Positions 4,269-64,000 of a DNA stretch of 64,000 nt are shown in pieces (within the stretch, counting starts at the first letter, position 1; every line of letters starts with the position of its first letter). The notes under the pieces were generated by a model. It had not been told where the DNA came from. It worked only from the letters and a program-made list of their open reading frames with translations, and did not search any database. The position numbers and the translations under genes were made by a program. The stretch lies in contig OZ025678.1 in assembly GCA_964019335.1 (NCBI GenBank), positions 551,302 to 615,301 of the forward strand, read 5' to 3'. Source of the DNA: Diplonema japonicum (taxonomy: Eukaryota; Protista; Euglenozoa: Diplonemea).

Positions 4269-6110
4269 GCATTTTTTTTTTACCCCCTCTTTTTTTTTTT
4301 GTTCAGTTTTAACAGTTATTTTAGCCTAGGCAACGGTCTATTCAACTTTTTCATCCATACCATCTTTTTTTTGTTCTTCTCCCTTCTAGTGGGTGTGCCT
4401 TAAGATAACTCGTATCGGCACGCCTTCGAGCGAAGCAAAGCAAGCAAAGCACCCATTTCAGGGTATTATTGTTGTTGTTTTTTTTTTTCTTTTCTTGTTT
4501 TGAATTTTGTCGGGAGGGGGAAGCAACCAAGTGGGGAGCGAGGAAGAAAAGATAGATATATCAATATATTATTTCTTTTTTTCCAACACCCTGGCAGAAC
4601 ATATCCTTTTTTTTTTCCCCTCAAGGTCTGCCTTTCAAGAGGACCGCAGCATTGAAGCGGACCCGGCCCCCGGGGCTTGTCCTCCCCAAGCGCAGCCATC
4701 AGTTTTTTCTTCCCCTCCCACCCTGCCTATTGTTGATTGTTGATTGTCCTTGTACCAAATGTTGCGCCCGCCGGTTGCACAACAACGCCCCCCCCCCCCT
4801 TTTTTTATCTGTGAAGTCTTTTTTTTTTTCTCTTATATTCTTTTTTTTTCTTTTTTTTTATTTGCCTCTGTGCATATTGTCGTGTCGAAGAAAAAAAAAG
4901 AAGAAAATAAAAAAAAAGGAAAGAAAAAAAAAAGCTTGTATAAGAAGACTAAAACTTCCTTCCCTATCCGGGCCCCAATAGGTGGCCACTGTTTTCGCTT
5001 TGGACACATCTGGTCTTTTTGGTCCACTTGCAGGGTGGGAGTGGATACTTAACACTTGAATGCTTAAAACGTCTGCTGGGCAGGATCCAAAACTCCACCG
5101 GGTGCACTATGCAGTGACGGAAGGAAAGTTTTTTCTCTCTTCTTGTTTCTGGAGATAGCGCGTCGTATATACCTTTCTTTTCAATATCCTCTTCTCCTTC
5201 TCCTCTTTGTTTTCCCCCCCTTTTTTTTCTTTTAGTGCGTCGGGGGGGGGGGGGTGTTCAATTGGCAACAACTAGCGAAACAGAATATTAAAATAAAGAA
5301 AGTGTTGTTTCCAGTTTTTTCGTTTTACGTATTTTTTCTTTTTCTTTTTTTTTTCCCGTTTTTTTTTTTCGGAAAACAAAAAAGTTATCTCTTGTCCAGC
5401 AACCGTTTGTTTGGGCATGCCTGTTTAAAAAAAAAGGGAGTGGGAGGGGGGGGGGGGGGGGGGGGATCTCATTGGAACAGGAGAACTTCCTGCGCTTTTC
5501 CTGTAGTCTGAAAAGCGAGAAAAAAAAGAAAAAAAAAACCAAAGACCTTATTTACAACCTACTCACGCTGTACTGATACATGGGGCGTTGCTTTTGGTCC
5601 TTCAAAAAATTTAGTTGAAAAATGTGCACAGATACAACTGACCAGAAATTGACTTTCTAAGAGCCTATTCCAAAGCGCGAATTTCTTTTGACTCAAACTA
5701 CTGAATAGCGCAATGTGGGAGGTAAATACTCGGTCGCAAAAAAAAAAAAAAAAAAAAAAAGGGAAGAAAAAAATAGAGAGTTGGAGAAAACGTCAGATAA
5801 GAAATATTGTCTTATTGGTCCCAATAATATGGAGGTGGGGGGAAGGAAGGAAGTAAGAAAAAAGATTTTTTTTTTTAAAAAGAAAAAAAGAAAGAAAAAA
5901 AAGATCGAACGATTATTATAAACCAGTCGAATCCATCCCCATAACTGCCTCCTTTTCCTGTCCCACTTTTTTTTTCTTCTTCTTTTCTTTTATTTTTTTC
6001 CGCCTATGTTTTTGTTTCATTGTCAGTTCCTTTCGCTTTTATGCTGTATTTTAAACAGTCCTATTTTCCCTTACTTCCTTACCTACCTACAGGAGCCTTG
6101 CTACCACAGT

Positions 6111-46783: not shown

Positions 46784-48790
46784 AGGGCCATTGGGGTTAG
46801 ATATTCTTCTGCCTCCTGTTAATACCGTCTTTGAATATGTAGAATAGCTTTTTCTTTGTGGTGTCATCTTACACGGCCCTGATATTTCTTTTTCTTTTTC
46901 TTTTCTTCTTCTTCTTCTTCTCAACTGCAGAGCTAATGATGCGCTGCGTGTGAGAAGAGCCCTGCGGGAACGAGTGTTCCATGACAATCGAGTTCCTCGT
47001 AGGGTAACTTAAATTCTTTTGTTTAAGACACCTTTGTTTTTATCCTTTTTTTTTTTCTTTTTTTTTTTAGAGGACCTGTCGAACTAGATGCTTGCACACG
47101 GAGCAACGGGTAAGGTATTGAGAACGCTATTGAAGAGTGTGTTACCCTACGTCGATTACCACGATGGATCGATTTTGAGATGACCGTTGGGACAACATGG
47201 GCTGTTAGAGAGAAAAACTAATAGAATGCAGACATGTGCGGCAAGGGCAACAATCTTAGCGTAGCATCTCATCCATGACTGAAAAGCAAACACTGACAGG
47301 CACGTGTAGGATCCCCAGTCCACGGTAGGCACCAACCAGCGCACCGCAAAAATAGATGAATTTTTTTATCTCCAGATCCTATGCTTAGAGTATCGTGCCG
47401 TGACATTTTTTGATACAACGGCACCGTGGGGTTCTCCCCACTACACATCACTGATACTTTTTCTTGACACACCTAACCGTCTCGGCATATGTGTGGTGCT
47501 CAGGCAGACCATGTAATATTACCCCATGAGCTTTTCCGCATTTGTACATTTCTTTCTGCCGCACTTTTTTTCTGGAAAGAAGATCTTAATCCACCATTGG
47601 TGTTTTTTTTTTTTTTTTTCATATTTTATTTTACCCAAAAAAATAAAAGAGCAATTTTATTTTTGGGAATAAACCAAACCATTTTTTTTTTAAAAAAGAA
47701 TATTTTTTCCCACGATTTTTTTTCTCCCTTCTTTTTCCTTTACTACACCACTACTCTCCCTCTTTTTTTTTTCTTCATTATTGCAGCACCACCCTTATAA
47801 TTATTTCTTATCTCTGTTCTATTCTTTTGATGTGCCAGCAAACAACCCATCTATTACAGCTTCTTTAAAACAGTAAATGCTTCATTCTGCATGCGGTGCG
47901 TGTCAGCAAGAGACGCGAAGTCCGTGTGTGCGCCGAACTCTAGCCTAGTTCTTTGGCAACACTGCACGTGTGAATGTGAATGTGAAATTTCTAAAAGGCG
48001 TCAGCTGCTGAAGAAAGCACTGGACGCCGCGATGTTACTTGAACGATGTAACTAACTCCTCACCACATGTATGTGCAGGATGTTATTGAATTGATCAAGG
48101 TTACAAAGAAGCAGTCAAGGCGCGCTTAGCCATTTCAGGTTCAGCGAGAACGGAACACTAAAAGGTTCGGGGAAGACACCGGTTACACTCCAGTCTTGAT
48201 TGTGTGTACCGGGAGAAAGAAGTCGAACTGCTAAGATATCAGCACCAGGGTACTGAATTGCCTTTGACTTCTCATTGATAGAGCGCAATAAGCTATGCCT
48301 CCTTTAAGCAACATGACCTATGCCCGATGTACGTGGGTTCGGGTTCCATTGCTTTGGCTATTTCCTTTAGTCTGGTTACCGTCGTACCCCCTTTCGTTGC
48401 GCCATGATTTATAAAAGGGGTTTTGTCGTGTCTTCGAGAGGCATCTCACGATTCTTGTTCATAACGAACTCATCTTTCGCCTTTTACTAAAGATGACCGT
48501 GGACATGGATCACTAAGTGATAATTTTTATAAAGGTCCAGCACCTTTCTTTTTGAATCGCCAGAAGAAATGCGTCTACTGGGACTGCTCATAAAACGTGC
48601 ACGTGACTCACACCGGCGCTCCTACTGCCATCAACCACTGAGATGGTATGTTAAAAGAATAGAATGCTACGTGAGAGCGGTTGAGCACAAAAAATGATAA
48701 GTAATCTTCGATTACTGAAGGAATGTGCTCTGGGACGTGCGAAGAGGCGGGCGGATGACGCAAACCCATGGGAAAATAGCCAGAAAGAAG

Positions 48791-48831
<41 letters not shown>

Positions 48832-49157
48832 GACTCGATTTATCTCTTGATGTTGTCAAAGGACGATATTTTAGTAGACCTTTTTTTTGGAGGGGGGCAC
48901 ATGAAGAGGTATGAGGCGTAAGTAAAAAAAAAGAGGGGGGTGCTCAAAGGCTTTTTTCCCCTTTTACTTCGTGTTATTTTGTACAAAATAATATAAAAAA
49001 AAATGAACAAAGTAGTGAAAGGACCCCTCCTGTTGGTTGTGTAGGAAAAAAAAGGACAAAAAAAAAGAGACAACGAAACAAGGTACCGATAAAAAGTGGG
49101 GGAGGGGAATATGAGCTCATTGGAGGGAAGAAAACAAGTATGTGGAATAGTAAGAAT

Positions 49158-49197
49158 AACCAAACGATTCTAAAGCTACAGTTTCTGTACTTTATTG
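49158..49197 (+). other. genomic copy of the spliced-leader (mini-exon) sequence, diplonemid type
   Basis: AACCAAACGATTCTAAAGCTACAGTTTCTGTACTTTATTG. The 3' part, CAGTTTCTGTACTTTATTG, is the conserved euglenozoan SL end. Confidence 0.92.
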
Positions 49198-49339
49198 GTC
49201 GTCTGTGTTCTTGTTGGTGCCTGCTGCGTCCGCTCGGTGTCCGTTCGTCGTCGTCTGGGGGGGTTGTTTCGGCCCGGCCCGTCTGCCGTTTAGCAAAGGA
49301 TCCCCTCCCCCCTCAACACAAAAAAATAAAAAAATAAAA

Positions 49340-49948
49340 ATGGACCCTAGACGAAACGTCGTCGGAGACCGCCGCCCGCAGGAGGAACGCCTACGAGAGA
49401 CGCCGACCAAGCCGACCACCCGACCAGACCGAAATCTGGCCGGGCAGTATGACCCTCCCCTCCCCTTAGATCCCCCGATTCCGCAGCCGCCGCCGCCACC
49501 CGCCTGGAAGACTGAGAGGGGGGAAAAAAAGAAAGAAGGAGGGTGGGTGCTCATGGGAGGGGACCACCCCCCGGGCTTAAGAACAGGCCCGGCCCCCACC
49601 CACCCAGAGACCTTGCTCTCGGGGGGGTGGGAGTCCATTTCGGGGAACAAAGGGAGGTAAACCCTCCAATTTGGTTTCAGGTGGGTGGGTGCCCGTGCCA
49701 AAGTGCGCCGCACCACCCCGATCCCAGAGGGGGCTAGGGGTTGGGTGGCGGAGGTGGCCACCGCAGCGGGGCTGGGGATCACCCCAGACCAGGTGCTCGT
49801 GAATCGATACGAGCCTGGGTGTGGAATTGCCCACAACACCGACGACACAAGGTTGGGACCAGTGGTCCTCAATCCAACTCACAGCCTTCACGTGGCGTCC
49901 CCTGTAATTATGGCCCTGCGAGAAGGAGTCCAGGCTTGGAGGTTATAG
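49340..49948 (+). pseudogene. AlkB/2OG-Fe(II) oxygenase-like pseudogene within an SL-headed, poly(A)-tailed retrocopy
   Basis: R*TLQFG...PDQVLVNRYEPGCGIAHNTD...GPVV matches the AlkB N-Y-xPGxGIxxHxD region. In-frame TAA at 49658-49660, N at the expected His position, C-terminal half missing; poly(A) at 50094-50156. Confidence 0.65.
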
Positions 49949-50091
49949 TTGGGAGGAGATGGGGTGGGGAGGGAAAGATAGAACCTTTCAATTACCTTTC
50001 ATCCAGTGCATTTTTGCCTTTTTATCGGGAGCTCGTTTTTCAGAGGGGATAGTCCGTTGAAAAGACACACGATCTCATGATAATACACATG

Positions 50092-50156
<65 letters not shown>

Positions 50157-50158
<2 letters not shown>

Positions 50159-51035
50159 ACGAGTCCTCCCTACTCTACGAGAGACTCCAAAGAATGGAGA
50201 ACACAACAGGCAAGAGGGCAGTGGAAGGACCGGGAAAAGGCAAGTCATGGCTAAAAAAGGCGAGCGACAGAGACAACCAGCTGACGGCCCTGAGAAGACA
50301 CGGAAGAGCACCCCTACAACGACAATCACCCATCCCCCCATGGGAATGGACAATCTTGAACAACCTCAAAATAAGAGCAGAAGGGAGCGGAACGAAGAAA
50401 AAATCGAAAGATGATCAACTGGAAGCAGCACGCGAGATCATCCGGAAACCCCCCAAAGCAGAGGTAACCGTGTACACGGACGGATCCGTGGAGAAGGGGA
50501 CGGAGGTGCAGGTGTGAACATACAAATGGAAGGCGAACAGATAAAAATCAGCAAAGGGGTGTGCAGCTCATGCGATAGCTTCCAAGCAGAACTCACGGCG
50601 ATGGAGGAAGCACTCATCCAGCTGTTAAAGACCGGAAAGAACAATGTGCAGATCAACATCCTGACAGACTCGATGTCTTGTCTGCAGAAATTGAAGCAGG
50701 GCCAGCACGACAACCAGAAAGCATTACGAACAGGGTCTGGAGCCACCTGCACGAGCTGCTGAAGAGAGGGAACCGCATAACCTGCTGCTACATACCCAGC
50801 CACTGCGGGGTGGAAGGAAACGAGACAGCGGATACCCTCGCACGAGAAGGCACCAAGCAGGAGTACACGCAAGAGCTCAGCTTCGGAGCAGCGAAGAATT
50901 ACCTGCGATGCTTGGCAAAAGAGGAATTCGCAAAATGGAAGAGCGAGATGTGCAAAGAGTCAGTCTACCACAAGGTAACGCAAGGAAAAGACGCTCCAAA
51001 GAGGATGGTAGGACTGGACAGAAGGGAGGAGGGGT
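50157..51035 (+). mobile_element. degenerate Ingi/L1Tc-like non-LTR retrotransposon fragment (RNase H region)
   Basis: PPW...VYTDGS, FQAELTAMEEAL, ILTDSMS and YIPSHCGVEGNETADTLA spread over three frames (two frameshifts). Confidence 0.82.
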
Positions 51036-51040
51036 TTTAT

Positions 51041-53120
51041 TTTCCATTACAACAAATCGACAAAGAAAAAAAAAAGGGGACCGGGAGTTTTCCCCCTGAA
51101 GTTCCTTTGTTAAAACATGTTTGCTGTTGGGTTTCCGTTTCTTTTCTTTTTGGTTTAACTAGAATTTTTCCTTCTACAGCTTGCTTGCTGATGGTTTTAA
51201 GTTGATTCTCTTTTATTTTTATTTTTATTTTTGGTTTAACTAGAAGTTTTCCTACAGCTTGTTTGCTGATGGCTTTAAGTTGACTCTTTTTTATTTTTAT
51301 TTTTGGTTTAACTAGAAGTTTTCCTTCTACAGCTTGTTCGCTGACGGGTGGGTTTATCGGGCGGGCTTCCATAGCTGGTGATCTATGGAAGCCTTCCCAA
51401 ATTTTTTCTTTTTTTCAAGGACGGCAAGACCACCAACGGAGGAGAAACCGCTGCAGAAAGGGGAAAGGTGTAGGAAGACGAAGAGGACGAGAGGGCGTCT
51501 CACAAAGACTCCCTTTGATTCATATATCTTTTATTTTCTTTTTATTTTTCTTTGGAGGATCGTGGCGGGAGGGGTTTTCTACACCCACCCAAAGGCGTGG
51601 TACCAGGACAAAATCACCAGACGGGTACCACCCCCAGAGGGCGAGCAGAGCGAAAGCGAGGACAGCTCGGAAGAGGAAGGGGACGAGACACACGAGCGTG
51701 TGAACAAGAGACCAACAACAGACGAAGTCACATGCGACGCGTGCGGTGCGGAGGAGGACGAGAGCAACATGCTGCGACACGCATTATGGGAATGCAGTGT
51801 GGCGAAGGAGGTGCAACAGAAGGAAGTACATGCAGAAGTAGTGGCCAGCAAGACGGAAATGCCAATCTGCATGCAGCTACATGGAACGCTCCCGCGTGGT
51901 CACCGAACACACCAACACCGGCTGAGGAAGACGCAATACTACCTGCTGGAAGTGGTGGCAAAACGGGACCAGCTTCTCCAGGACAAGAGAAAGCTAGAAA
52001 CGTACACGACGCACCCCTGGGAACAGATAACGGAAGGAAACGCTCATGCGCCACCTGAATGGAAGGAGCTGAGGAAGCATGTGAGCGGGAGCCTGATGAT
52101 GAAGCACGGTGAAGACATCGTCAAGTGGCTCAAAAAGCTGAAGTGGTACGATGGACCGAGGAAGACGACAGTCACCACAATGGAACTCGTACTAGACTTC
52201 GAGAACACGCTGGGCGTCGAGCCGATCACGGGGAAGAAGGGTGATCTAGACATGATACAGAAGAAAGCGCGGAGTTTCCACGGCCTCCTGGAAAGAATCC
52301 AAGAAGGGTGGGACACAGCACGCATACAGAAGAAGGTCAGAGGCAAGCGGATCTTCCCAGCGGAGAGCAAGAAGAACCACGCGCTTAGAACCATAGGTGC
52401 GAAGAAGAGTCTGGGATGGAACAGAAGGCCAGTTTTTGCATCAGAGAAAACCAAGAAGGACCTTAAGAAACTGGGCAGAAAGTGGCAAGAAGAAAGGGAG
52501 GATACTTTGAGGAAGGCAACACAGCCAAAAAAGAAAGAAAGGCCGAGGCCCCAGAAGGGGGAAAGGGGTAGATAAGTAGAGACAAGGGGGACGTTCCAAA
52601 ACAGGAACCTCCTTTATCTCATCTCTTATTTTTCTTTTCTTTATTTTCTTTCTCCCAACCCAACCCCCCCCGAAAAAAAAGAAAAGAAAAGAAAAGAAAA
52701 GATTCATTCCTCCCTAGTTTATTATATTTTGCATCAGGTTCGCCGAGAAAATAAAAGGAAAAACAAAGAAAGAGAACGGCAACCAGATTTTAAATTTTTA
52801 TTTTATCATCAAAGGAGGTTTGAAAAAGAGAAAAATTAAAGAGAAGAAAGAGACCTTTTTCTCCTCTGTCGATAAGTGATTCACGAACTCGAATCTTTAT
52901 CACCACTTTTTTGTGCATGCCAGATTTTTTTTTTCTCCCGCCTTGTTAAAGAAGTTTTAATTTACTAATAAAAAAAAAAGTGAAAAGAGGAGTAGAAGAC
53001 GATCCGGTGGGGGGCATGGGAACCATAAACCGTGTCTTCCATCGCGATCGGCAAGGCGGGGGCTTTTCCGTCCCATGGGTGAAAAGAGGCGGATAAAATC
53101 ACTATTCCGGACCCCCCCAA
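51041..53120 (-). repeat. ~1 kb non-coding dispersed repeat, copy A (interrupted by the 51554-52625 insertion)
   Basis: 51041-51553 plus 52626-53120 is the reverse complement of 55443-56410 with scattered differences; internal ~65-70 bp subrepeats. Confidence 0.88.
51554..52625 (+). mobile_element. 5'-truncated LINE 3' fragment with 12-bp target-site duplication
   Basis: Open frame with CDAC...HALWEC zinc knuckle, stop at 52575, ends in (ATCTC)2. TTATTTTTCTTT is duplicated at 51542-51553 and 52626-52637 and is single in uninterrupted copy B. Confidence 0.85.
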
Positions 53121-53128
53121 AAAAAAAC

Positions 53129-54623
53129 GAGTTCTTGAAGGAGGTGGCATCTGAAGCAGCGAAGAGGACGCGACGACACAGGGTGGAGGTCTTCAACGAC
53201 ATGAAGGCCGCAGTGTCGGCGGCCGTGGTCAAGGGCGTGGCGAGGGCGGCCATCAGGAAGGGGAAGGTTCTGGTGGAGAAGATGGAACTGGACTCGGAAG
53301 CGGAGCAGCACTCCCAGGAGGAGAGGAGGGAGCGGGAGGATCAGGAGGCGATGGAACGGGAAGCTGCGGCTACAGGAATGGAGGAGGAGGTAGCTGAGGC
53401 GGCGTTCTACCTGACAGGGATGGCTGCTCTGGCCGCGGCGAAGGCGGCGGAGAACAAGTTCCAGGAGGAGGCAGAGAGGAGGACCGCGAACCTGGCGGCC
53501 GCGGCGGTGGTAGCAGCAGCGTCAGCGGCAGCAAAAGCAGCGGCGGAGCGGGTGGACGCGGAGATGGGAGAGGAGGAGACAGGGAGCGGCACAATCCAAA
53601 ACACAAAAGCTGGCCCTGTGAGGAGCGGAGAGGAAGGAGGGGCCCGGAACCAGGGGGCGGTGGATGGCACAGAAAACAATCAAACAGCTAACCAGCGCAC
53701 CGAGGGGAAGGACCAGCAGGCAGAGACCACGACAGGCACAATCCAAACACACACAGCCGACGGGGTCGAAGCCGAGGACGCACAGGGAAGCCAAGCCATT
53801 CTTCCGGAGATGGAGTTGCGTGACCCGAAGGAGCCGTACATCGTCGTCGCCACGCACCACGGGGATGTGGTCGCGGAAGGGGAGACCCAGTTCGACGCAC
53901 AGGAGTGGCTCCAGAGGGTGAAACAAGTGATGGAGGAGTGCAGCGGGGAGGAGAGCGAAGAGTACTCCCAGCTGCTGCGCGACGAGTGCACCACGTCGGA
54001 CGGGGGAGAGGGGAGGCTGTACGACCTTGTGGCGAGGATAGAGCAAGCACAGGAGGTCCGGCCTGGAGGCAGGAGGGTGACTATCTTCCCCACGGGGGCG
54101 GAAGAGGGGGTGAGCTACACTCTCAATACCCAGCCCGACGTGGATCCCGAGGTGTTCAGGTGGAGGATAGTCGCGAGCAACATGGCGAACGGCACCGAAG
54201 GGAACCTGCACCTGGTGAAGGTGCAAGAGGAGGGTGGGGAAGTGGTCCCCGTGGCGGAGTACCAGAGGGTCTTGGAGGCGCGGAAAAGACACAGGGATTT
54301 CGCGGCGGGGATGAGGCGGGTGAAACAGGAGGAAGGGGCAAACAAGAGGCAGAGGGAGGGGAGCGAGGGGACGATGGTGGGAACCCCGGACGGACAAGGG
54401 AAGTCGGTGGAGGTCCAAAAGTCCAGGAAACAGCTCGCCCCTGCGCGTGGGGTGGAGGCGCAGGAGGAGATGGACACCTATGTCGGGAGGTTGTCACCAT
54501 CATCTTCGGAGGGGGGCTCCCAAAGCGCGACCCCCCGAAGCCCCATCCCCCTTCAGATGGAGGGGGTTGATGACAGCGAGTATAATTGAGAGGGATAGTT
54601 AAATAGGGAAAACTACAAAGGAG

Positions 54624-54654
<31 letters not shown>
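53129..54654 (+). mobile_element. 5'-truncated copy of the CRE-like retrotransposon (3' end, short UTR, poly(A))
   Basis: 53129-53680 reads identical to 63449-64000. TGA at 54587-54589, ~35 nt UTR, then poly(A). Confidence 0.92.
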
Positions 54655-55131: not shown

Positions 55132-55442
55132 CCACACCCAAAAGGGGTGCCAAAATGGGGCTGGACGGACGCAGATGCCTACAGGGGGTTTTTGTAAGTT
55201 TGAAAACCGAAAATTCCGGATGCAAATTTGGCTCCGCGGTGTTCTTGGTGTTCAGGCTCCCTGTCTGCCAGGGCTGGCCCACCATGGCTGTTTTCACCGC
55301 CTTCCTTGGGGCCGTAGGTCTTTTGTTATTTCCCTAAACTCCTTCTCCTTGGCTTTTTTTTTTCTTGGCGTCCGCCGTAAAATTGGTGATATTTTGATAA
55401 ACAAGAGAGGTATGTATGGGGGAAAAAGTGCATGCTCAGTGT

Positions 55443-56410
55443 TGGGGGGGGTCCGGAATAGTGGTTTTATCCGCCTCTTTTCACCCATGGGACGGAAAAG
55501 CCCCCGCCTTGCCGATCGCGATGGAAGACACGGTTTATGGTTCCCATGCCCCCCACCGGATCGTCTTCTACTCCTCTTTTCACTTTTTTTATTTTTTTAC
55601 TAGTAAATTAAAACTTCTCTAACAAGGCGGGAGAAAAAAAAAATCTGGCATGCACAAAAAAGTGGTGATAAAGATTCGAGTTCGTGAATCACTTATCGAT
55701 AGAGGAGAAAAAGGCCTCTTTCTTCTCTTTAATTTTTCTCTTTTTCAAACCTCCTTTGATGATAAAATAAAAATTTAAAATTTGGTTGCCGTTCTCTTTC
55801 CTTGTTTTTCCTTTTATTTTCTCGGCGAACCTGATGCAAAATATAATAAACTAGGGAGGAATGAATCTTTTCTTTTCTTTTCTTTTTTTTTTTCGAGGGG
55901 GGGTAGGGTTGGGAGAAAGAAAATAAAGAAAAGAAAAATAAAAAGAAAATAAAAGATATATGAATTGAAGGGAGTCTTTGTGAGACGCCCTCTCGTCCTC
56001 TTCGTCTTCCTGCACCTTTCCCCTTTCTGCAGCGGTTTCTCCTCCGTTGGTGGTCTTGCCGTCCTTCCCCAGCCCGGCCTGAAAAAAAGAAAAAATTTGG
56101 GAAGGCTTCCATAGGTCACCAGCTATGGAAGCCCGCCTGATAAACCCACCCGTCAGCGAACAAGCTGTAGAAGGAAAACTTCTAGTTAAACCATAAGATA
56201 AAAAATAAAAAAGAATCAACTCAAAACCATCAGCAAACAATCTGTAGAAGGAAAACTCCTAGTAAAACCAAAAAGAAAAGAAACGGAAACCCAACAGCAA
56301 ACATGTTTTAACAAAGGAACTTCAGGGGGAAAACTCCCGGTCCCCTTTTTTTTTTCTTTTGCTAACTTTCTTTTTTTTTTTTTTTCCCCTTTGTCGTTTT
56401 GTTGTAATGG

Positions 56411-56475
<65 letters not shown>
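55443..56475 (+). repeat. ~1 kb non-coding dispersed repeat, copy B, ending in a 65-nt poly(A)
   Basis: Inverted counterpart of copy A; A-run at 56411-56475. Confidence 0.88.
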
Positions 56476-56479
<4 letters not shown>

Positions 56480-56586
56480 GACTGGCCGTTGTTTGTACGT
56501 GCCGGGTAAAACCTGGAGACGTTTGTCAACCCGAAACACGTTGCCAACGTTCCCCTTTTGTTTAGACAAGTCAAAGACTCGTTCTT

Positions 56587-56627
<41 letters not shown>

Positions 56628-56734
56628 GACTGGCCGTTGTTTGTACGTGCCGGGTAAAACCTGGAGACGTTTGTCAACCCGAAACACGTTGCCAACGTTC
56701 CCCTTTTGTTTAGACAAGTCAAAGACTCGTTCTT

Positions 56735-56775
<41 letters not shown>

Positions 56776-56882
56776 GACTGGCCGTTGTTTGTACGTGCCG
56801 GGTAAAACCTGGAGACGTTTGTCAACCCGAAACACGTTGCCAACGTTCCCCTTTTGTTTAGACAAGTCAAAGACTCGTTCTT

Positions 56883-56923
<41 letters not shown>

Positions 56924-57030
56924 GACTGGCCGTTGTTTGTACGTGCCGGGTAAAACCTGGAGACGTTTGTCAACCCGAAACACGTTGCCAACGTTCCCCT
57001 TTTGTTTAGACAAGTCAAAGACTCGTTCTT

Positions 57031-57071
<41 letters not shown>

Positions 57072-57178
57072 GACTGGCCGTTGTTTGTACGTGCCGGGTA
57101 AAACCTGGAGACGTTTGTCAACCCGAAACACGTTGCCAACGTTCCCCTTTTGTTTAGACAAGTCAAAGACTCGTTCTT

Positions 57179-57219
<41 letters not shown>

Positions 57220-57326
57220 GACTGGCCGTTGTTTGTACGTGCCGGGTAAAACCTGGAGACGTTTGTCAACCCGAAACACGTTGCCAACGTTCCCCTTTTG
57301 TTTAGACAAGTCAAAGACTCGTTCTT

Positions 57327-57367
<41 letters not shown>

Positions 57368-57476
57368 GACTGGCCGTTGTTTGTACGTGCCGGGTAAAAC
57401 CTGGAGACGTTTGTCAACCCGAAACACGTTGCCAACGTTCCCCTTTTGTTTAGACAAGTCAAAGACTCGTTCTTGC

Positions 57477-57499
<23 letters not shown>
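56476..57499 (+). repeat. tandem array, 7 copies of 113 nt + poly(A), 148-bp period
   Basis: Units start GAGGGACTGG at 56476, 56624, 56772, 56920, 57068, 57216 and 57364; A35 spacers, last tail A23. Confidence 0.97.
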
Positions 57500-58404: not shown

Positions 58405-58960
58405 CTTTTTTTGTTGTTTCTTTTTCTTTTTCTTATTTTTCTTTCTATCTTAAAATTTTTAATCTTCCTAGTTTAAAAGTTTAAAAGAAAGAAAATGAAA
58501 AAGATTGTTTGATATGGGTTCTAGGTTTTAAAAAAAAAAAAAAAAAATTAATTAATTCTTTTTCCCTCCTCCATCTCTTCCTCTCAAGTTTCGATAGCCC
58601 TCCCACCCCCCCCAACTTTCTTGAACTTCTTTTCACCTTTTTCCCCCCCTACCTCTCCTTGGTTCCCAGTGAACGAGAAAGAACGAAAGTAAATAAAAAA
58701 AGCCTTTCCCGTCCCTTGTTCACTCCGCCGTGCACCCCGATATCCTCCTCCCTTTAGTTTCTTCCCCCTAGTTTCGCACGGGTGGGTCCATTGTTATTTG
58801 CCAAAAAAAAAAAAACAAAAAAAACAAAAAACCACCCCCACCCCCTGTAGGAGACATACCCATCCCCCCTGAGAGCCACCGGGACCCTGCCCCTAGGCCA
58901 CACACCCAACCCGCACCTGCCCCAGCGAAGGCACCCCTTCCCCCCTATGTAGACGTGCAT

Positions 58961-61900
58961 ATGGGGAATAAGGTCTACCTCAGGACTTTGAGGAGACCCC
59001 AAGAGGGACCGCGCCCACCGTCCACGCACGCCCTGCCCCCACTCCAAGGAATAGTGGGAGGAGACACGGTGGAAACGGCTGGCAGGGCGACCCGGTGGAA
59101 CCCACCCAGGGAAAGGCGCAGGGGTGTGCGAACTGGGAGGAAGAAGGAGGCAGCCCCGAAGAAGAAGGAGAGGAAGAGGAGGAGGACGGAGGCTGCTCTG
59201 GAGGCGAGGAGGCGGAGGAGGCAGGCGGCCAGGGAAGCAGAGGCCGACAGGGAAGAGGCAGGGAGGCAGGAGAGGAAGAGAGCGAGAAGGGAAGCGAAGA
59301 ACGCAGGCAGGAGGGAAGCAAGAACGAGGCGCAGGAGGCTGGAGGAAGGGCAGGCGGAAAGGGAAGTGGAGAGTAGTGGGTGGAGGGTTGCCCTCCCCAT
59401 TCTGTTCCACCTTCTATGCTGCCTTGTCACCCTCGCCCCTGCCCCAGACCTTGGTGGCCACTCAAGTGCACAAGGGGAAGGGTCGCGTCCCACGAGGAGA
59501 ACGAGGAGAAGGTGGGTGGGTAGAAGGCCTGGCAGACCTTCATTCAAGGTTGGGGGCAGGAGCTCTTCTAACCCCCACTTCCTTCCCTCGTCTCCACTAC
59601 CCCCTCCTCCTCCGTTTCCCCAGTCCCTTCCCCTCCCCTTCCATCAGGGGCTGAAAGCAACCGCCGAGCCCCCCCCATGCTCGAGACGCAGTGTCGCCCT
59701 CCCAGGAGGTGCCTTGAGAGGAGGGGCAGCATTCGAGTGCAAAAGCTGCGACTTCAAGGCGAAGACCAAGGGGGGACTCCGGTACCATGTCGCTGGTCAC
59801 TGGCGGAAGCAAGACGGCATCACGGCGGAGCAGGTAGTGGAGATGGGTTTTGGAATATGCGAGAGCTGCCCGGGAATATGCGCGGCTAGCAGCAAAAAGT
59901 GTCCGGAATGCTCGAACCAGGCGGGTGCCGGGAAAACCAAGTCGAAGAAGAAGAAGCCCCAGCAGGCCAAGCCAAGCCTCCAGGGTGACGGAAGAGCAAC
60001 AATGGATGCACTCATATCGTTCACGGGCGCGAGACTGGTCCCAGTGGCGGGAGACGGGAACTGTATGTTCCGAGCCATCGCCCACTTCCTCCACCGAGAT
60101 GAACGGAAGCACGCAGAGGTGAGGGCAGAAGTGATGGAGCACATGCGGGCCGAGGCTGGGAAGTACTCGCCTTTCATGGAGGAGGGCAGCCAGGGCCTGG
60201 AGGAATACGTCAGGGAGATGAGCAAGGACAAGTCGTGGGGAGACCACGTATGTCTGGTGGCGGCCTCGGATCTTTGGCAGAGGCCTATCCTAGTGGTGGT
60301 GGGAGGCGAGTGGTCGGTGCTGGAGATAGCGGCAGAGGGTGTGGACCTGGGGACGGCAGGGTCGCACATCGTCATGGGCTTCAACGGCGAGCACTATGAC
60401 CCGGTGGAGGCAGACACACAACAGATGGAAAGGATGAGAGGGTGGGCCTACAGCGTGAGGTCGCAGGCGCCAGGGGTGCAACCCGCAGCGGCACCTAGCG
60501 AAGACTTCATGAAGGTATCGGATCCAGTAGAGAAAAGAGTGGACCCGGGGGTCGGAAGAGCGGAGGAAGCCGCCCCGTTGAAGTCAAAGACAGACCTGTA
60601 CTGCCCCGTGTATGGGTGCGAGAGGTCGCTAAGGATGAAGGGGAGGGCCTTCATGTCGTTCGCGACCCTGACGGAGCACCTGAACGATCACCTGATGGAG
60701 TCGGAGGTATCGCAGGCGGATCTGCGGGGCATAGGCCTGCGCCCGTGTGTCTGTGGGAGACTGGCGAGCACGGAGAAGGGTGCGCACGAGGAGTGCCTGA
60801 AGGAGATGGGAGAGTTCGCCCCCACCGAGAGATGCGCGGCGCCGCACAGGTCGGAGCTCCCCTCCCTGGATGAAGTGATGTCGGCAAAAGTAAGGGTGCT
60901 GAAGTGGGTCCCAGACAGCCTGAGGAGGGACTGGAGTGTGGCACTCAAACAATGCATGGACAGGGTAGTGGAAGAGAAGACCTACGAGTCCTGGGTCATG
61001 CTCATGATGCTCCCCAAGGTGTGCCTCTCGAAGCGCAAGGGTGGGAAGGATAGGAGGAAGACCAACGAGAAGAACAACAAGAACAAGCTCGCACAGTGGC
61101 TGAGGGGAGAACACAAGGAGCTGTGGGAGGACCTGCCGAAGCCTAAGTATGTACCTCCGAAGGAGCCGACGGAGGAGACACGCCTGAGCAGAGCGGAGAC
61201 GCTGACCAGGGAGATGAGATTCTCCCAGGCGAATGCGGCCTTGACGGCGGTAGGGCTAGCGGACGACGACGAGGACACAGAGAGGAAACTCGAGGCGCTA
61301 CACCCGAGACCAATGCATGACCCGAGCCTGCTGGACCTGGGGGAGCCGGAAGAGGCGGAAGTGCTTACACCCCTGGAGTGTGTCCGCACCCTGCAGGACC
61401 TGGGCAAGGGGAAGTCGGCGGGCCCTTCGGGCCTCAGCGTGGAACATCTCCGGGCAGCTGTGGAGGGCAGGGCGAAGGCGAAAGGGATCACAGAGTCGCT
61501 GACAAGGACGTGCAATGTGATGGTCCAGGGGGAGGTCCCGAGTGACGTCGTCCCGTTCCTAGCAGGCGGTTCACTTACTCCGCTGAAGAAGCCGGACAAG
61601 GGAGTTCGCCCAATCGCGGTGGGCGAATGCCTGAGGAGGTTAGTGGCGAAAGCCCTGGTCGTGAAAATAGCCCCTGCAGTTGCCACGGAGTACTTGAGGA
61701 AAGGTGGTCAACTGGGGGTGGCGGTGCCGGCGGGCATGGAAGCGGCTGTGCACACCTTTAGGCAATACGTGAAGAGGGAGAGGGAACAGGGAGAGGGAAA
61801 CAGGGTAATCGTGAAGGTGGACTACGCGAACGCCTTCAATTCTATGAGCAGGCACGAGATCTTGCGACAAGTGAGGGCGAAGGCTGCTGGGGCGGAAAAA

Positions 61901-64000
61901 TGGGCGCAACTTTGTTACAAGAATCCCACGAACCTGCTGTACGGGGATGGGAAGGTCCTGCAGTCGAAGGAGGGTGTGCAGCAAGGGGATCCTCTGGGAC
62001 CCCTCTTCTTCTCCCTCGCCCTCCAACCCATCATTGAAAAGGTCAAGGAACAGACGGACTTGGACATCTGTCAGTTTTACCTGGACGATGGGGTCTTCGC
62101 GGGCGAGGTGGAGCAAGTGAGGAAGGCGGTGGACATCCTGACGGAGTTGAGCGCAGATGTTCACCTGTCGGTGAAGCCGGCGAAATGCGAACTCATCTGG
62201 GTACGCGGGGAGAAGCCCAACGACCCAGCCGAGTGGGGCTTCAAGGGCTTCAGAAAGGACAAAGTGTCCCGCGACGGCAACTTCGAGCTGCTAGGGGCAC
62301 CGATCGGCACACCGGAGTACACGACCGCCTTCCTCCACAGGAAGATCGACAGGCTGGCGGAGACCTTCCGGATGCAGTCGAAGATGCGGGCACAGTCGGG
62401 GTACGCCCTCCTTCGCAGCTGCCAGTCTTTCGGCAAGATGGTGCACTTCATGCGGACCATCCCTGAGACCCATGTTGGGGACGCCATGCAGAGGTTCGAC
62501 GAGTTGGTCAGATCGACGATGGGGTGCCTGGCGGGAGGGGAGCTGGAGGGGCACCAGTGGAAACAAGCAAGCCTAGCAGTAAGGAGGGGAGGGCTGGGCC
62601 TGAGGAGCTGCCAGGAGCACCTGAGAGTGGCGAACATCGCATCCCTGGTGGCGACGCGGAACATCTCCCAGGAGATCGACCCCATGTACGACTGGGATTC
62701 CGCGGCAGACTGGGAGGAGCACTGCAGGTGGCTGAACGAGAAGGTCCCGGGCGAGGCGGCCCTGATGAGCGTGGGGCTCTTGAAGGACTACCCGAAGGCA
62801 GCTCAGCAGAGGCTCCTGTCCCTCATTCTCGAGGACAGCGCATGGCAAGGCCTCCTGGGGGAGGCAGGGAAGGAAGACAAGGCCAGGATCCGCGGGACGG
62901 CGATGCAAGGAGCCGGGGCATGGCTGGTGGCCCCCCTCACCCATGGCAACCTGATGAACGATGAGGAGTTCAAGGTGGCGACGAGGTGGTGGCTCGGGGC
63001 GCCTCTATACCAAGAGGGCACACAGTGCTTGAACTGCGGGGAGGAAATGGACGCCCGAGGAGACCACGCGCAGTGCTGCAAGAACGGAGGGACCACGCAA
63101 CACCGCCACAACGGGGTGAGGGACGTCCTGTATGACCAGTGCAGGGAGGGGGCGATAGATGTGGTCAGGGAGGAGAAGCACATCGTGGCTGGCTCATCGG
63201 CAAAGCCAGCGGACATCCTCCTCCCGAGCGGGATACAAGGAAACGGCCACGGGCTGGCGGTGGATGTGACGGTGGTGCACCCTCGGACGGTGGGCAACCT
63301 GGAACAGGCCTCAAAAACTGCTGGCTACGCTGCGAACAAGGCCCAGGAGGCGAAGAACAAGAAGCACATGGAAGCGTGCAAGGAGGCTCACAAGCAGTTC
63401 CGCCCTTTTGCGGTGGAAACGTTTGGGGGTCTGGCAGGGCAGGCCAGGGAGTTCTTGAAGGAGGTGGCATCTGAAGCAGCGAAGAGGACGCGACGACACA
63501 GGGTGGAGGTCTTCAACGACATGAAGGCCGCAGTGTCGGCGGCCGTGGTCAAGGGCGTGGCGAGGGCGGCCATCAGGAAGGGGAAGGTTCTGGTGGAGAA
63601 GATGGAACTGGACTCGGAAGCGGAGCAGCACTCCCAGGAGGAGAGGAGGGAGCGGGAGGATCAGGAGGCGATGGAACGGGAAGCTGCGGCTACAGGAATG
63701 GAGGAGGAGGTAGCTGAGGCGGCGTTCTACCTGACAGGGATGGCTGCTCTGGCCGCGGCGAAGGCGGCGGAGAACAAGTTCCAGGAGGAGGCAGAGAGGA
63801 GGACCGCGAACCTGGCGGCCGCGGCGGTGGTAGCAGCAGCGTCAGCGGCAGCAAAAGCAGCGGCGGAGCGGGTGGACGCGGAGATGGGAGAGGAGGAGAC
63901 AGGGAGCGGCACAATCCAAAACACAAAAGCTGGCCCTGTGAGGAGCGGAGAGGAAGGAGGGGCCCGGAACCAGGGGGCGGTGGATGGCACAGAAAACAAT
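58961..64000 (+). mobile_element. CRE-clade non-LTR retrotransposon, single intact ORF (3'-partial): basic N-terminus, C2H2 fingers, OTU protease, reverse transcriptase, CCHC + restriction-like endonuclease, acidic tail
   Basis: Manual translation from ATG 58961 found no stop before the window end. CKSC..H..H (59732), GDGNCMFRAIA..WG..HYD (60030-60410), CPVYGC..HLNDH, RPIAVGECLRRL, DYANAFNS, GVQQGDPLGP, YLDD (62078), LGAPIG, GGLG, CLNC..DHAQCC..RHNGVRD (63026-63125), PADI, AVDVTV, FAVETFG. Confidence 0.93.

What the first reader, a model, noticed from the sequence alone, without database searches (positions are those of the whole stretch)
49158..50156. Spliced-leader-headed, poly(A)-tailed retrocopy encoding an AlkB-like domain
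Seen: a full SL exon, ~140 nt leader, ATG at 49340, a decayed AlkB-like ORF, then A63. AATAAC occurs at both 49155-49160 and 50155-50160, a weak possible TSD. The SL is followed by GTCGTC, not the GTATG donor used elsewhere here, and I see no Sm site or T-tract. Known: the SL is added to mRNAs by trans-splicing, so a genomic SL fused to a CDS indicates reverse transcription of a mature mRNA, as with dinoflagellate relict SLs. Inference: either a retroposed mRNA, or the 5' end of an SL-trans-spliced, AlkB-carrying LINE whose RNase H remnant follows at 50157.
Basis: partly seen in the sequence, partly recalled or inferred. Interest (0 to 1): 0.72.

Follow-up and report, generated by a model that had tools for sequence, protein, structure and literature searches.

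The report
Leader-headed AlkB retrotransposon, broken chimeric copy
In a marine flagellate, this stretch is the broken front end of a repeated element that begins with the cell's own mRNA leader and carries a predicted demethylase, likely a jumping gene, fused to unrelated sequence and a poly(A) tail; it is not a copied host gene.

Summary
In detail: spliced leader (SL) at 49158-49197, ATG 49340, AlkB-like reading, A63. It is not one retroposed mRNA. 49173-49871 is the 5' end of a family with about 7-35 near-identical copies. In public contigs the family starts inside the SL, has an intact HxD codon and continues for over 6 kb; this copy is 3% diverged, broken, and leaves the family at 49871, mid-AlkB. 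The best diplonemid relatives are Diplonema papillatum proteins, some of which join AlkB, OTU and reverse transcriptase, with a CRE-type endonuclease motif. 49872-50093 is other sequence: a piece of a second repeat that looks like an HDV-type ribozyme, then a 3' end found on a 5.4-kb contig. The AATAAC duplication is likely real (P about 0.007). Removing the unit leaves a 200-codon open frame running into the RNase H remnant, so that remnant is the likely target, not the continuation. Best reading: a dead template-switch chimera of two retrotransposon RNAs. How the family gets its SL (trans-splicing or read-through from SL genes) is open. The scan noted this AlkB element on another piece of this genome, and SL-headed LINEs in other groups, before.

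The parts
49158..49197 (+). Spliced leader exon, 40 nt (one extra A against other genomic copies)
   Evidence: in run X7, 875 of 921 laid contigs are 99% or more alike, depth peaks over the SL, and varied sequence follows it
49198..49339 (+). 5' UTR of the AlkB element family; first 14 nt shared with sister families
   Evidence: X3 contig 49173-49529 at depth 264 (table 8); loose ends behind 49211 in X3, X7, X11, X12
49340..49871 (+). 5' part of the family ORF: Pro/Arg-rich stretch, then N-terminal half of an AlkB (2OG-Fe(II)) domain; this copy has two 1-nt indels, a 69-nt deletion, a stop at 49658 and a lost His codon at 49835
49872..49907 (+). Piece of a second multicopy repeat; with its family flanks it has the pairing pattern of an HDV-like ribozyme (read by eye)
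   Evidence: loose ends before 49871 (X4) and behind 49907 (X1, X3, X4, X7, X12); no Rfam match
49908..49927 (+). 20 nt of unknown origin
   Evidence: between the 49907 loose ends and the X1 contig that starts matching at 49928; only a chance-level 14-nt match elsewhere in the window
49928..50093 (+). 3' end of another element or transcript; in run X1 49928-50084 lies at letters 5185-5341 of a 5373-nt single-copy-depth contig
   Evidence: table 8, record 7
50094..50156 (+). Poly(A) tail, 63 nt
49155..49160 (+). Left copy of likely target-site duplication AATAAC; overlaps SL nt 1-3
50155..50160 (+). Right copy of likely target-site duplication AATAAC; first two letters inside the poly(A)
50157..51060 (+). 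Frameshifted RNase H-bearing LINE remnant; likely the target that was interrupted
   Evidence: PF00075 pieces; frame open for 82 codons left and 118 right of the empty site
48915..49157 (+). Left flank, open frame in phase with the right flank; possibly the upstream part of the same old LINE
   Evidence: indels in other alleles (table 4) weaken this

Best explanation
The unit is a broken, 3%-diverged copy of the 5' end of a multicopy element that starts with the host spliced leader and encodes an AlkB-like domain, likely a CRE-type non-LTR retrotransposon, joined at 49871 to unrelated repeat sequence and a poly(A) tail, likely by a reverse-transcriptase template switch during one insertion into an older LINE. 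Shown: the family, its SL start in DNA-like contigs, its intact HxD codon and over 6 kb of further sequence; the break at 49871; the foreign tail. Inferred: (1) the family encodes OTU, reverse transcriptase and endonuclease like its D. papillatum relatives; (2) priming began on the poly(A) of a second element's RNA, whose 5' end carries an HDV-like ribozyme, and the enzyme then switched to the AlkB element's RNA and copied it to the leader; (3) the leader's first three letters paired with the target, giving the AATAAC duplication; (4) the family's RNA is SL-headed, most likely through RNA processing (about 0.5) rather than read-through from SL RNA genes (about 0.4); (5) the AlkB domain would demethylate the element's own RNA or DNA, by analogy with orchid Gypsy AlkB (untested).
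For: Depth over 49173-49871 is 246-264 against 7.6-21.5 for unique flanks in X3, and 1123-2005 against 109-152 in X1, i.e. about 7-35 copies. One X3 contig runs unbroken from inside the SL (49173) to 49529; a 6443-nt X3 contig matches 49507-49871 with 11 differences and goes on for 6071 nt with other letters that, translated by eye, continue an AlkB-like reading. All contigs of X1, X3 and X7 have G at 49658 and C at 49835 (table 3). Of 17 protein hits, 15 were scanned and all 15 carry PF13532; of the 10 looked up, the two with an organism name are D. papillatum proteins. Related D. papillatum proteins KAJ9442719.1 and KAJ9464152.1 hold AlkB + OTU (20-21 bits, just under the cut-off) + RVT_1, the former with a CRE-type endonuclease motif. 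In a 17-row tree the window fragment and the D. papillatum rows are one side of a branch, support 86/87. Duplication: 4 informative letters, 949 of 145,284 random sites do as well.
Against: The family's sequence beyond 30 letters past 49871 could not be read, so RT and endonuclease are not shown for this family. The tree branch is not starred, rows are long, no diplonemid host AlkB was in it, and grouping with P0004 is not rejected (p-AU 0.16); identity to the D. papillatum domains (40%) equals that to P0004. No listed contig bridges 49871/49872 or 49907-49928; X1 has no cover at 49920-49927 and carries 49928-50084 behind 5.2 kb of other sequence, so the short form may be a deletion or an assembly collapse. 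The kind of the runs is not on record; DNA for X1 and X3 is inferred from intergenic cover and contigs of 64-102 kb. Summed contig depth is a rough copy measure. Other alleles have indels in the left flank that break the in-phase frame.
Confidence: 0.55

Rival explanations
1. Same 5' family, but a longer history: a near-full-length ribozyme-headed LINE of about 5.4 kb sat behind 49871 (by the same template switch or by a later insertion), and about 5 kb of it was lost in this strain or collapsed in the assembly.
For: X1 holds 49928-50084 at the end of a 5373-nt single-copy-depth contig; L1Tc, a ribozyme-headed LINE, is 4.9 kb (PMC5814959 table passage); no contig listed bridges 49907-49928.
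Against: 49908-49927 matches neither side, which a clean deletion would not give; contig simplification can remove a single-copy link between repeats; the window's own diverged letters are present at single-copy depth in X2 and X4 (table 3), so the locus itself exists.
Confidence: 0.3
2. On the origin of the leader: the family is a classical SLACS/CRE element whose master copies sit in SL RNA genes; the SL promoter reads through exon plus GT into the element, so the leader is target-derived, not trans-spliced.
For: CRE elements insert in SL RNA genes, between nt 11 and 12 (PMC12278014, PMC5814959 passages). The element follows the exon with GT, the first intron letters. X1 and X3 contigs show no leaderless entry at 49198. 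In X12 the promoter-side and intron-side contigs have similar depth (72, 77) with 34.5 going into the element, which fits this model but also the other.
Against: None of the 8 X12 records is a poly(A)-plus-partial-SL junction (repeat filters apply). An unrelated SL-headed sequence also starts GTCGTC (L001), so GT is not diagnostic. The other CRE-type element in the window has no SL at either end. An unchecked scan note puts the family in a short satellite (e1-10630253).
Confidence: 0.4
3. Processed pseudogene of an ordinary trans-spliced host AlkB mRNA.
For: SL, leader, ATG, ORF, poly(A) and a duplication are in the expected order; D. papillatum has about a dozen AlkB-type genes (PMC10161547 passage).
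Against: High-copy family, SL present in DNA-like contigs, over 6 kb continuation, tail from other sequence.
Confidence: 0.05
4. 5' end of an AlkB LINE whose RNase H follows at 50157.
For: RNase H pieces lie just downstream on the same strand.
Against: A63 and the duplication separate them; 50167-50398 is at single-copy depth; the frame is continuous across the empty site; the six D. papillatum cluster members scanned, including both AlkB-RT proteins, gave no RNase H hit.
Confidence: 0.04

Closest known systems
CRE clade non-LTR retrotransposons (SLACS, CZAR, CRE1/2 of trypanosomatids; MoTeR/FoTeR of fungi)
   Same: D. papillatum relatives have one long ORF with RT and a C-terminal restriction-like endonuclease motif; an SL exon stands at the 5' end, as it does for copies inserted in SL genes
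   Different: N-terminal AlkB and OTU domains; this copy lies outside any SL gene and has no SL behind its poly(A); RT not seen for this family
D. papillatum proteins annotated 'SLACS 132 kDa protein' (KAJ9442719.1, KAJ9464152.1)
   Same: AlkB domain near the N-terminus, 40% identical over the 81 aligned residues
   Different: Their DNA, and whether they start with an SL, could not be read; the genome paper's main text mentions AlkB once, as host demethylases
AlkB-carrying Ty3/Gypsy elements of Phalaenopsis orchids (PMC9289625)
   Same: Retrotransposon with an AlkB domain; m6A demethylase activity shown there in vitro
   Different: LTR element, separate ORF, ALKBH5-like; here non-LTR, activity untested
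Relict-SL retrogenes of dinoflagellates (PMC5585692, PMC6050394; search listing only)
   Same: Genomic SL marks a reverse-transcribed RNA
   Different: One repeat family and its sisters rather than many host genes; no tandem relict SL
Chimeric retrocopies such as U6-L1 (recalled) and Pr77/HDV-ribozyme LINEs L1Tc, ingi, NARTc (PMC5814959, PMC4035085 passages)
   Same: 5' end of one RNA joined to a poly(A)-tailed 3' end inside one duplication; ribozyme-like piece at the joint
   Different: Both partners appear to be retroelement RNAs; ribozyme fold read by eye only

Membership tests
CRE/SLACS clade | Single ORF with RT and restriction-like endonuclease | not testable with these tools
CRE/SLACS clade | Insertion in SL RNA gene between nt 11 and 12 | tested here: not met
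   For this copy: no SL remainder or SL intron behind the poly(A), one SL in window. For the family: inconclusive
CRE/SLACS clade | Poly(A) tail and target-site duplication | tested here: inconclusive
   Both present, but the tail follows non-family sequence
AlkB (2OG-Fe(II) oxygenase, PF13532) | Profile match | tested here: met
   17.8 bits, under Pfam cut-off; E 2e-20 with profile of hits; all 16 PDB hits are AlkB or ALKBH8, E 0.04-1
AlkB (2OG-Fe(II) oxygenase, PF13532) | HxD...H iron ligands and C-terminal arginines | tested here: inconclusive
   HxD lost in this copy, intact in family contigs; distal His and Arg lie beyond 49871 and were not seen
Processed pseudogene of a host mRNA | Colinear with one parent transcript from leader to poly(A); parent without SL in DNA | tested here: not met
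   Break at 49871; SL-headed contigs at family depth
SL RNA gene | Exon followed by conserved intron | tested here: not met
   Differs after GT from the conserved continuation seen in X3 and X12; fold not unusual, z -0.89
HDV-like ribozyme (49872-49907) | P1, P2, P3, P4 and catalytic C | tested here: inconclusive
   P1, P2, P3 pairings and a C-bearing joint read by eye from window plus loose ends; window piece lacks both outer parts; no Rfam hit among 42 matches

The most novel reading that the evidence does not exclude
A young, homogeneous family of diplonemid CRE-type retrotransposons carries the host spliced leader as its own fixed 5' terminus, outside SL genes, and renews it each round by trans-splicing onto the end of the DNA-encoded leader (its pyrimidine-rich 3' half and final TG acting as acceptor), so that a promoterless element gets a capped, host-like mRNA; it also brings its own AlkB demethylase and OTU deubiquitinase against host marks.
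Probability: 0.2. Interest if true: 0.75.

Novelty: new variant of a known kind. Interest (0 to 1): 0.48.

Why it matters
The locus itself is a dead fragment. The family behind it matters more: a non-LTR element with AlkB and OTU domains was not found in print in my searches (AlkB on a retrotransposon was found only for orchid Gypsy elements), and it offers a testable case of an element erasing RNA or DNA methyl marks. A family-wide genomic SL asks how a promoterless element gets its 5' end in a lineage with polycistronic transcription and universal trans-splicing. The chimera shows that SL-capped RNA is copied to its first bases here, so SL-tagged retrocopies can form in diplonemids.

Tried and rejected
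No whole genome is held, so no parent-locus or copy-count search was possible. No listed run is on record as RNA: 'no RNA holder listed'; X7 looks like RNA by its many SL-headed contigs, but this is inferred. Homolog search of the read-through fragment among 257-2000 aa proteins: 0 of 697 candidates. AlkB region of KAJ9442719.1 among 1449-4612 aa proteins: 1 of 186, its own cluster; no wider distribution shown, weak evidence. The apparent C-terminal AlkB arginine motif at about 49975-50000 is rejected: the profile does not match it and it lies in non-family sequence. Metagenome pattern scan: 1 match, an unrelated SL-headed coding sequence. Viral contigs with the AlkB fragment: one 16-residue match, not pursued. 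ESM Atlas on 50158-50514: uninformative, RNase H cluster only at 0.82. No tRNA in the window. X3 has no cover at 49920-50143; a hole proves nothing. Supplements of PMC10161547 (7 files searched) gave only orthogroup rows for AlkB and SLACS; 'spliced leader' and 'SL RNA' had no hit, so the supplementary text on repeats and SL RNA genes was probably not among the files read and may bear on the SL question. The original SLACS/CRE1 papers were not read; duplication sizes for them are not used except as recalled background.

Full report
Setting. The window is gene-dense to about 47 kb, then a U5 snRNA gene at 48444-48546 and a block of repeats. The leader and the protein relatives point to a diplonemid; D. 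papillatum has a 39-bp SL exon (PMC10161547, passages). No whole genome is held, so copy and junction questions were asked of public contigs (7 of the 13 listed runs were laid).

Observation. The SL lies at 49158-49197 and is the only match in the window. In run X7, 875 of 921 laid contigs are at least 99% alike, depth peaks over the SL and many different sequences follow it, as expected of a trans-spliced leader. Other genomic copies join at 49163, so this one has one extra A. A continuation shared by X3 and X12 after the GT is the likely SL RNA intron, and differs from the window after two letters. ATG 49340, stops at 49658, 49946 and later, and A63 are as described. PF13532 matches 49673-49906 at 17.8 bits, under the cut-off; a profile of 12 AlkB hits gives E 2e-20 and is the only AlkB match in the window; all 16 PDB hits are AlkB or ALKBH8.

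The 5' part is a repeat family. Depth over 49173-49871 is 246-264 in X3 against 7.6-21.5 on unique flanks, and 1123-2005 in X1 against 109-152: about 7-35 copies (depth is a rough measure, and DNA is inferred for these runs). One X3 contig runs unbroken from inside the SL to 49529, so the copies appear to enter through the leader, with no leaderless entry at 49198. A 6443-nt X3 contig matches 49507-49871 with 11 differences and continues for 6071 nt with other letters; the 30 served letters, translated by eye, continue an AlkB-like reading. The family has no stop at 49658, keeps the His codon at 49835, and has +1, +69 and -1 nt against the window between 49452 and 49506, a net in-frame difference. 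The window's own letters are seen at single-copy depth in X2 and X4. Sister sequences share the SL and the next 14 nt in four runs, including organisms B and C (small shares).

What the family likely is. The search of 1.84 billion proteins gave 17 hits; 15 were scanned (two long multi-stretch hits were left out) and all 15 carry PF13532. Of 10 looked up, two are D. papillatum proteins. Following these gave 4 proteins among 265 candidates, all D. papillatum, and a cluster of 8 that includes KAJ9442719.1 and KAJ9464152.1 with AlkB, a sub-cut-off OTU hit and RVT_1; the former has the CRE-type endonuclease motif and is 34% identical over 1214 columns to the OTU-RT element at 58772-64000 of this window. 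The window fragment is 40% identical to these AlkB domains and equally to P0004. In the tree it sides with them at 86/87, not starred, and an alternative grouping is not rejected. So membership of the AlkB-OTU-RT kind is likely, not shown. An earlier scan note (e1-10630253, unchecked) reports an SL-headed AlkB-OTU-RT element elsewhere in this genome; I confirmed the D. papillatum layout myself, not its target claim.

The 3' part is foreign. 49872-49907 belongs to a second multicopy sequence with different flanks on both sides. With those flanks it shows, by eye, the P1, P2 and P3 pairings of an HDV-like ribozyme, the device at the 5' end of L1Tc/ingi LINEs (PMC5814959, PMC4035085, passages); Rfam gives no match. 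49908-49927 is unassigned. 49928-50084 sits at the end of a 5373-nt contig at single-copy depth in X1. No listed contig bridges these joints, so a 5-kb deletion or an assembly collapse remains possible.

The insertion site. AATAAC flanks the unit; four letters are informative, and 949 of 145,284 random sites score as well. With the unit and one copy removed, one frame is open for 82 codons to the left and 118 to the right, into the RNase H remnant; phase alone has a 1 in 3 chance, and other alleles have indels in the left flank. The remnant is therefore the likely target.

Mechanism. Most likely a reverse transcriptase primed on the poly(A) of a second element's RNA, switched template to the AlkB element's RNA at 49871 and copied it to the leader, whose first three letters match the target end (confidence 0.55). 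The rival is a longer insertion later shortened (0.3). For the leader itself, carriage on processed RNA (about 0.5) and read-through from SL genes as in SLACS and CZAR, which insert between nt 11 and 12 (about 0.4), could not be told apart. X12 depths fit both; 0 of 8 X12 records show a poly(A)-SL junction. A single untandemed leader and the lack of an AG at its end mean that plain re-splicing of leader-headed copies needs a non-standard acceptor; this is the novel case, untested.

Literature. Ten searches. Passages read: PMC10161547 (also 7 supplementary files searched), PMC9289625, PMC12278014, PMC12857005 (no AlkB or OTU), PMC8061765, PMC3636483, PMC5814959, PMC4035085. Listing only: PMC5585692, PMC6050394. 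AlkB on a retrotransposon was found in print only for orchid Gypsy elements; an AlkB-OTU non-LTR element and SL-headed diplonemid elements were not found, in a library that lacks most subscription papers. U6-L1 chimeras are recalled. The scan has noted SL-headed LINEs in euglenids, ctenophores and dinoflagellates.

Verdict. Real feature, misread as one transcript. A dead chimeric fragment that marks an interesting family: new variant of a known kind, interest 0.48.

Noticed in passing
IMGVR_UViG_3300046534_001516 (loci L002-L005, L007-L014): A 237,777-bp contig with a Pox_A32 packaging ATPase and other giant-virus-type genes carries this SL core at 8 places. The four full copies read lie 30-60 nt ahead of an ATG and shortly behind an AAAA(A/T)TGAA motif (resembles the mimivirus early promoter, recalled). 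It suggests a diplonemid-infecting giant virus with DNA-encoded leaders; PMC8061765 says no diplonemid virus was verified. The scan has similar notes for dinoflagellate and kinetoplastid leaders.
   Followed up: partly
window 58772-64000 +: Long ORF with zinc-finger-like motifs, OTU, RT and CRE-type endonuclease motif, no AlkB, no SL; 63449-64000 is identical to 53129-53680, a 5'-truncated copy ending in A31 at 54624-54654.
   Followed up: partly
window 56441-57499: Seven identical 148-bp units (113 nt plus poly(A) of 35 nt, the last 23), SINE-like tandem array or assembly artefact.
   Followed up: no
window 48444-48546 +: U5 snRNA gene at the edge of the repeat block; contigs show a second diverged copy of its upstream region, and organism B shares the core.
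   Followed up: no
window 51062-53121 and 55442-56359: High-copy element with a 397-aa ORF and weak zf-RVT hit, with inverted partial copies and many internally deleted variants in the contigs.
   Followed up: no
run X7, joint 49198 to 49872: A contig joins the SL to the ribozyme-like repeat (depth 263, letters between not known), hinting that this second family is trans-spliced close to its putative cleavage site.
   Followed up: no
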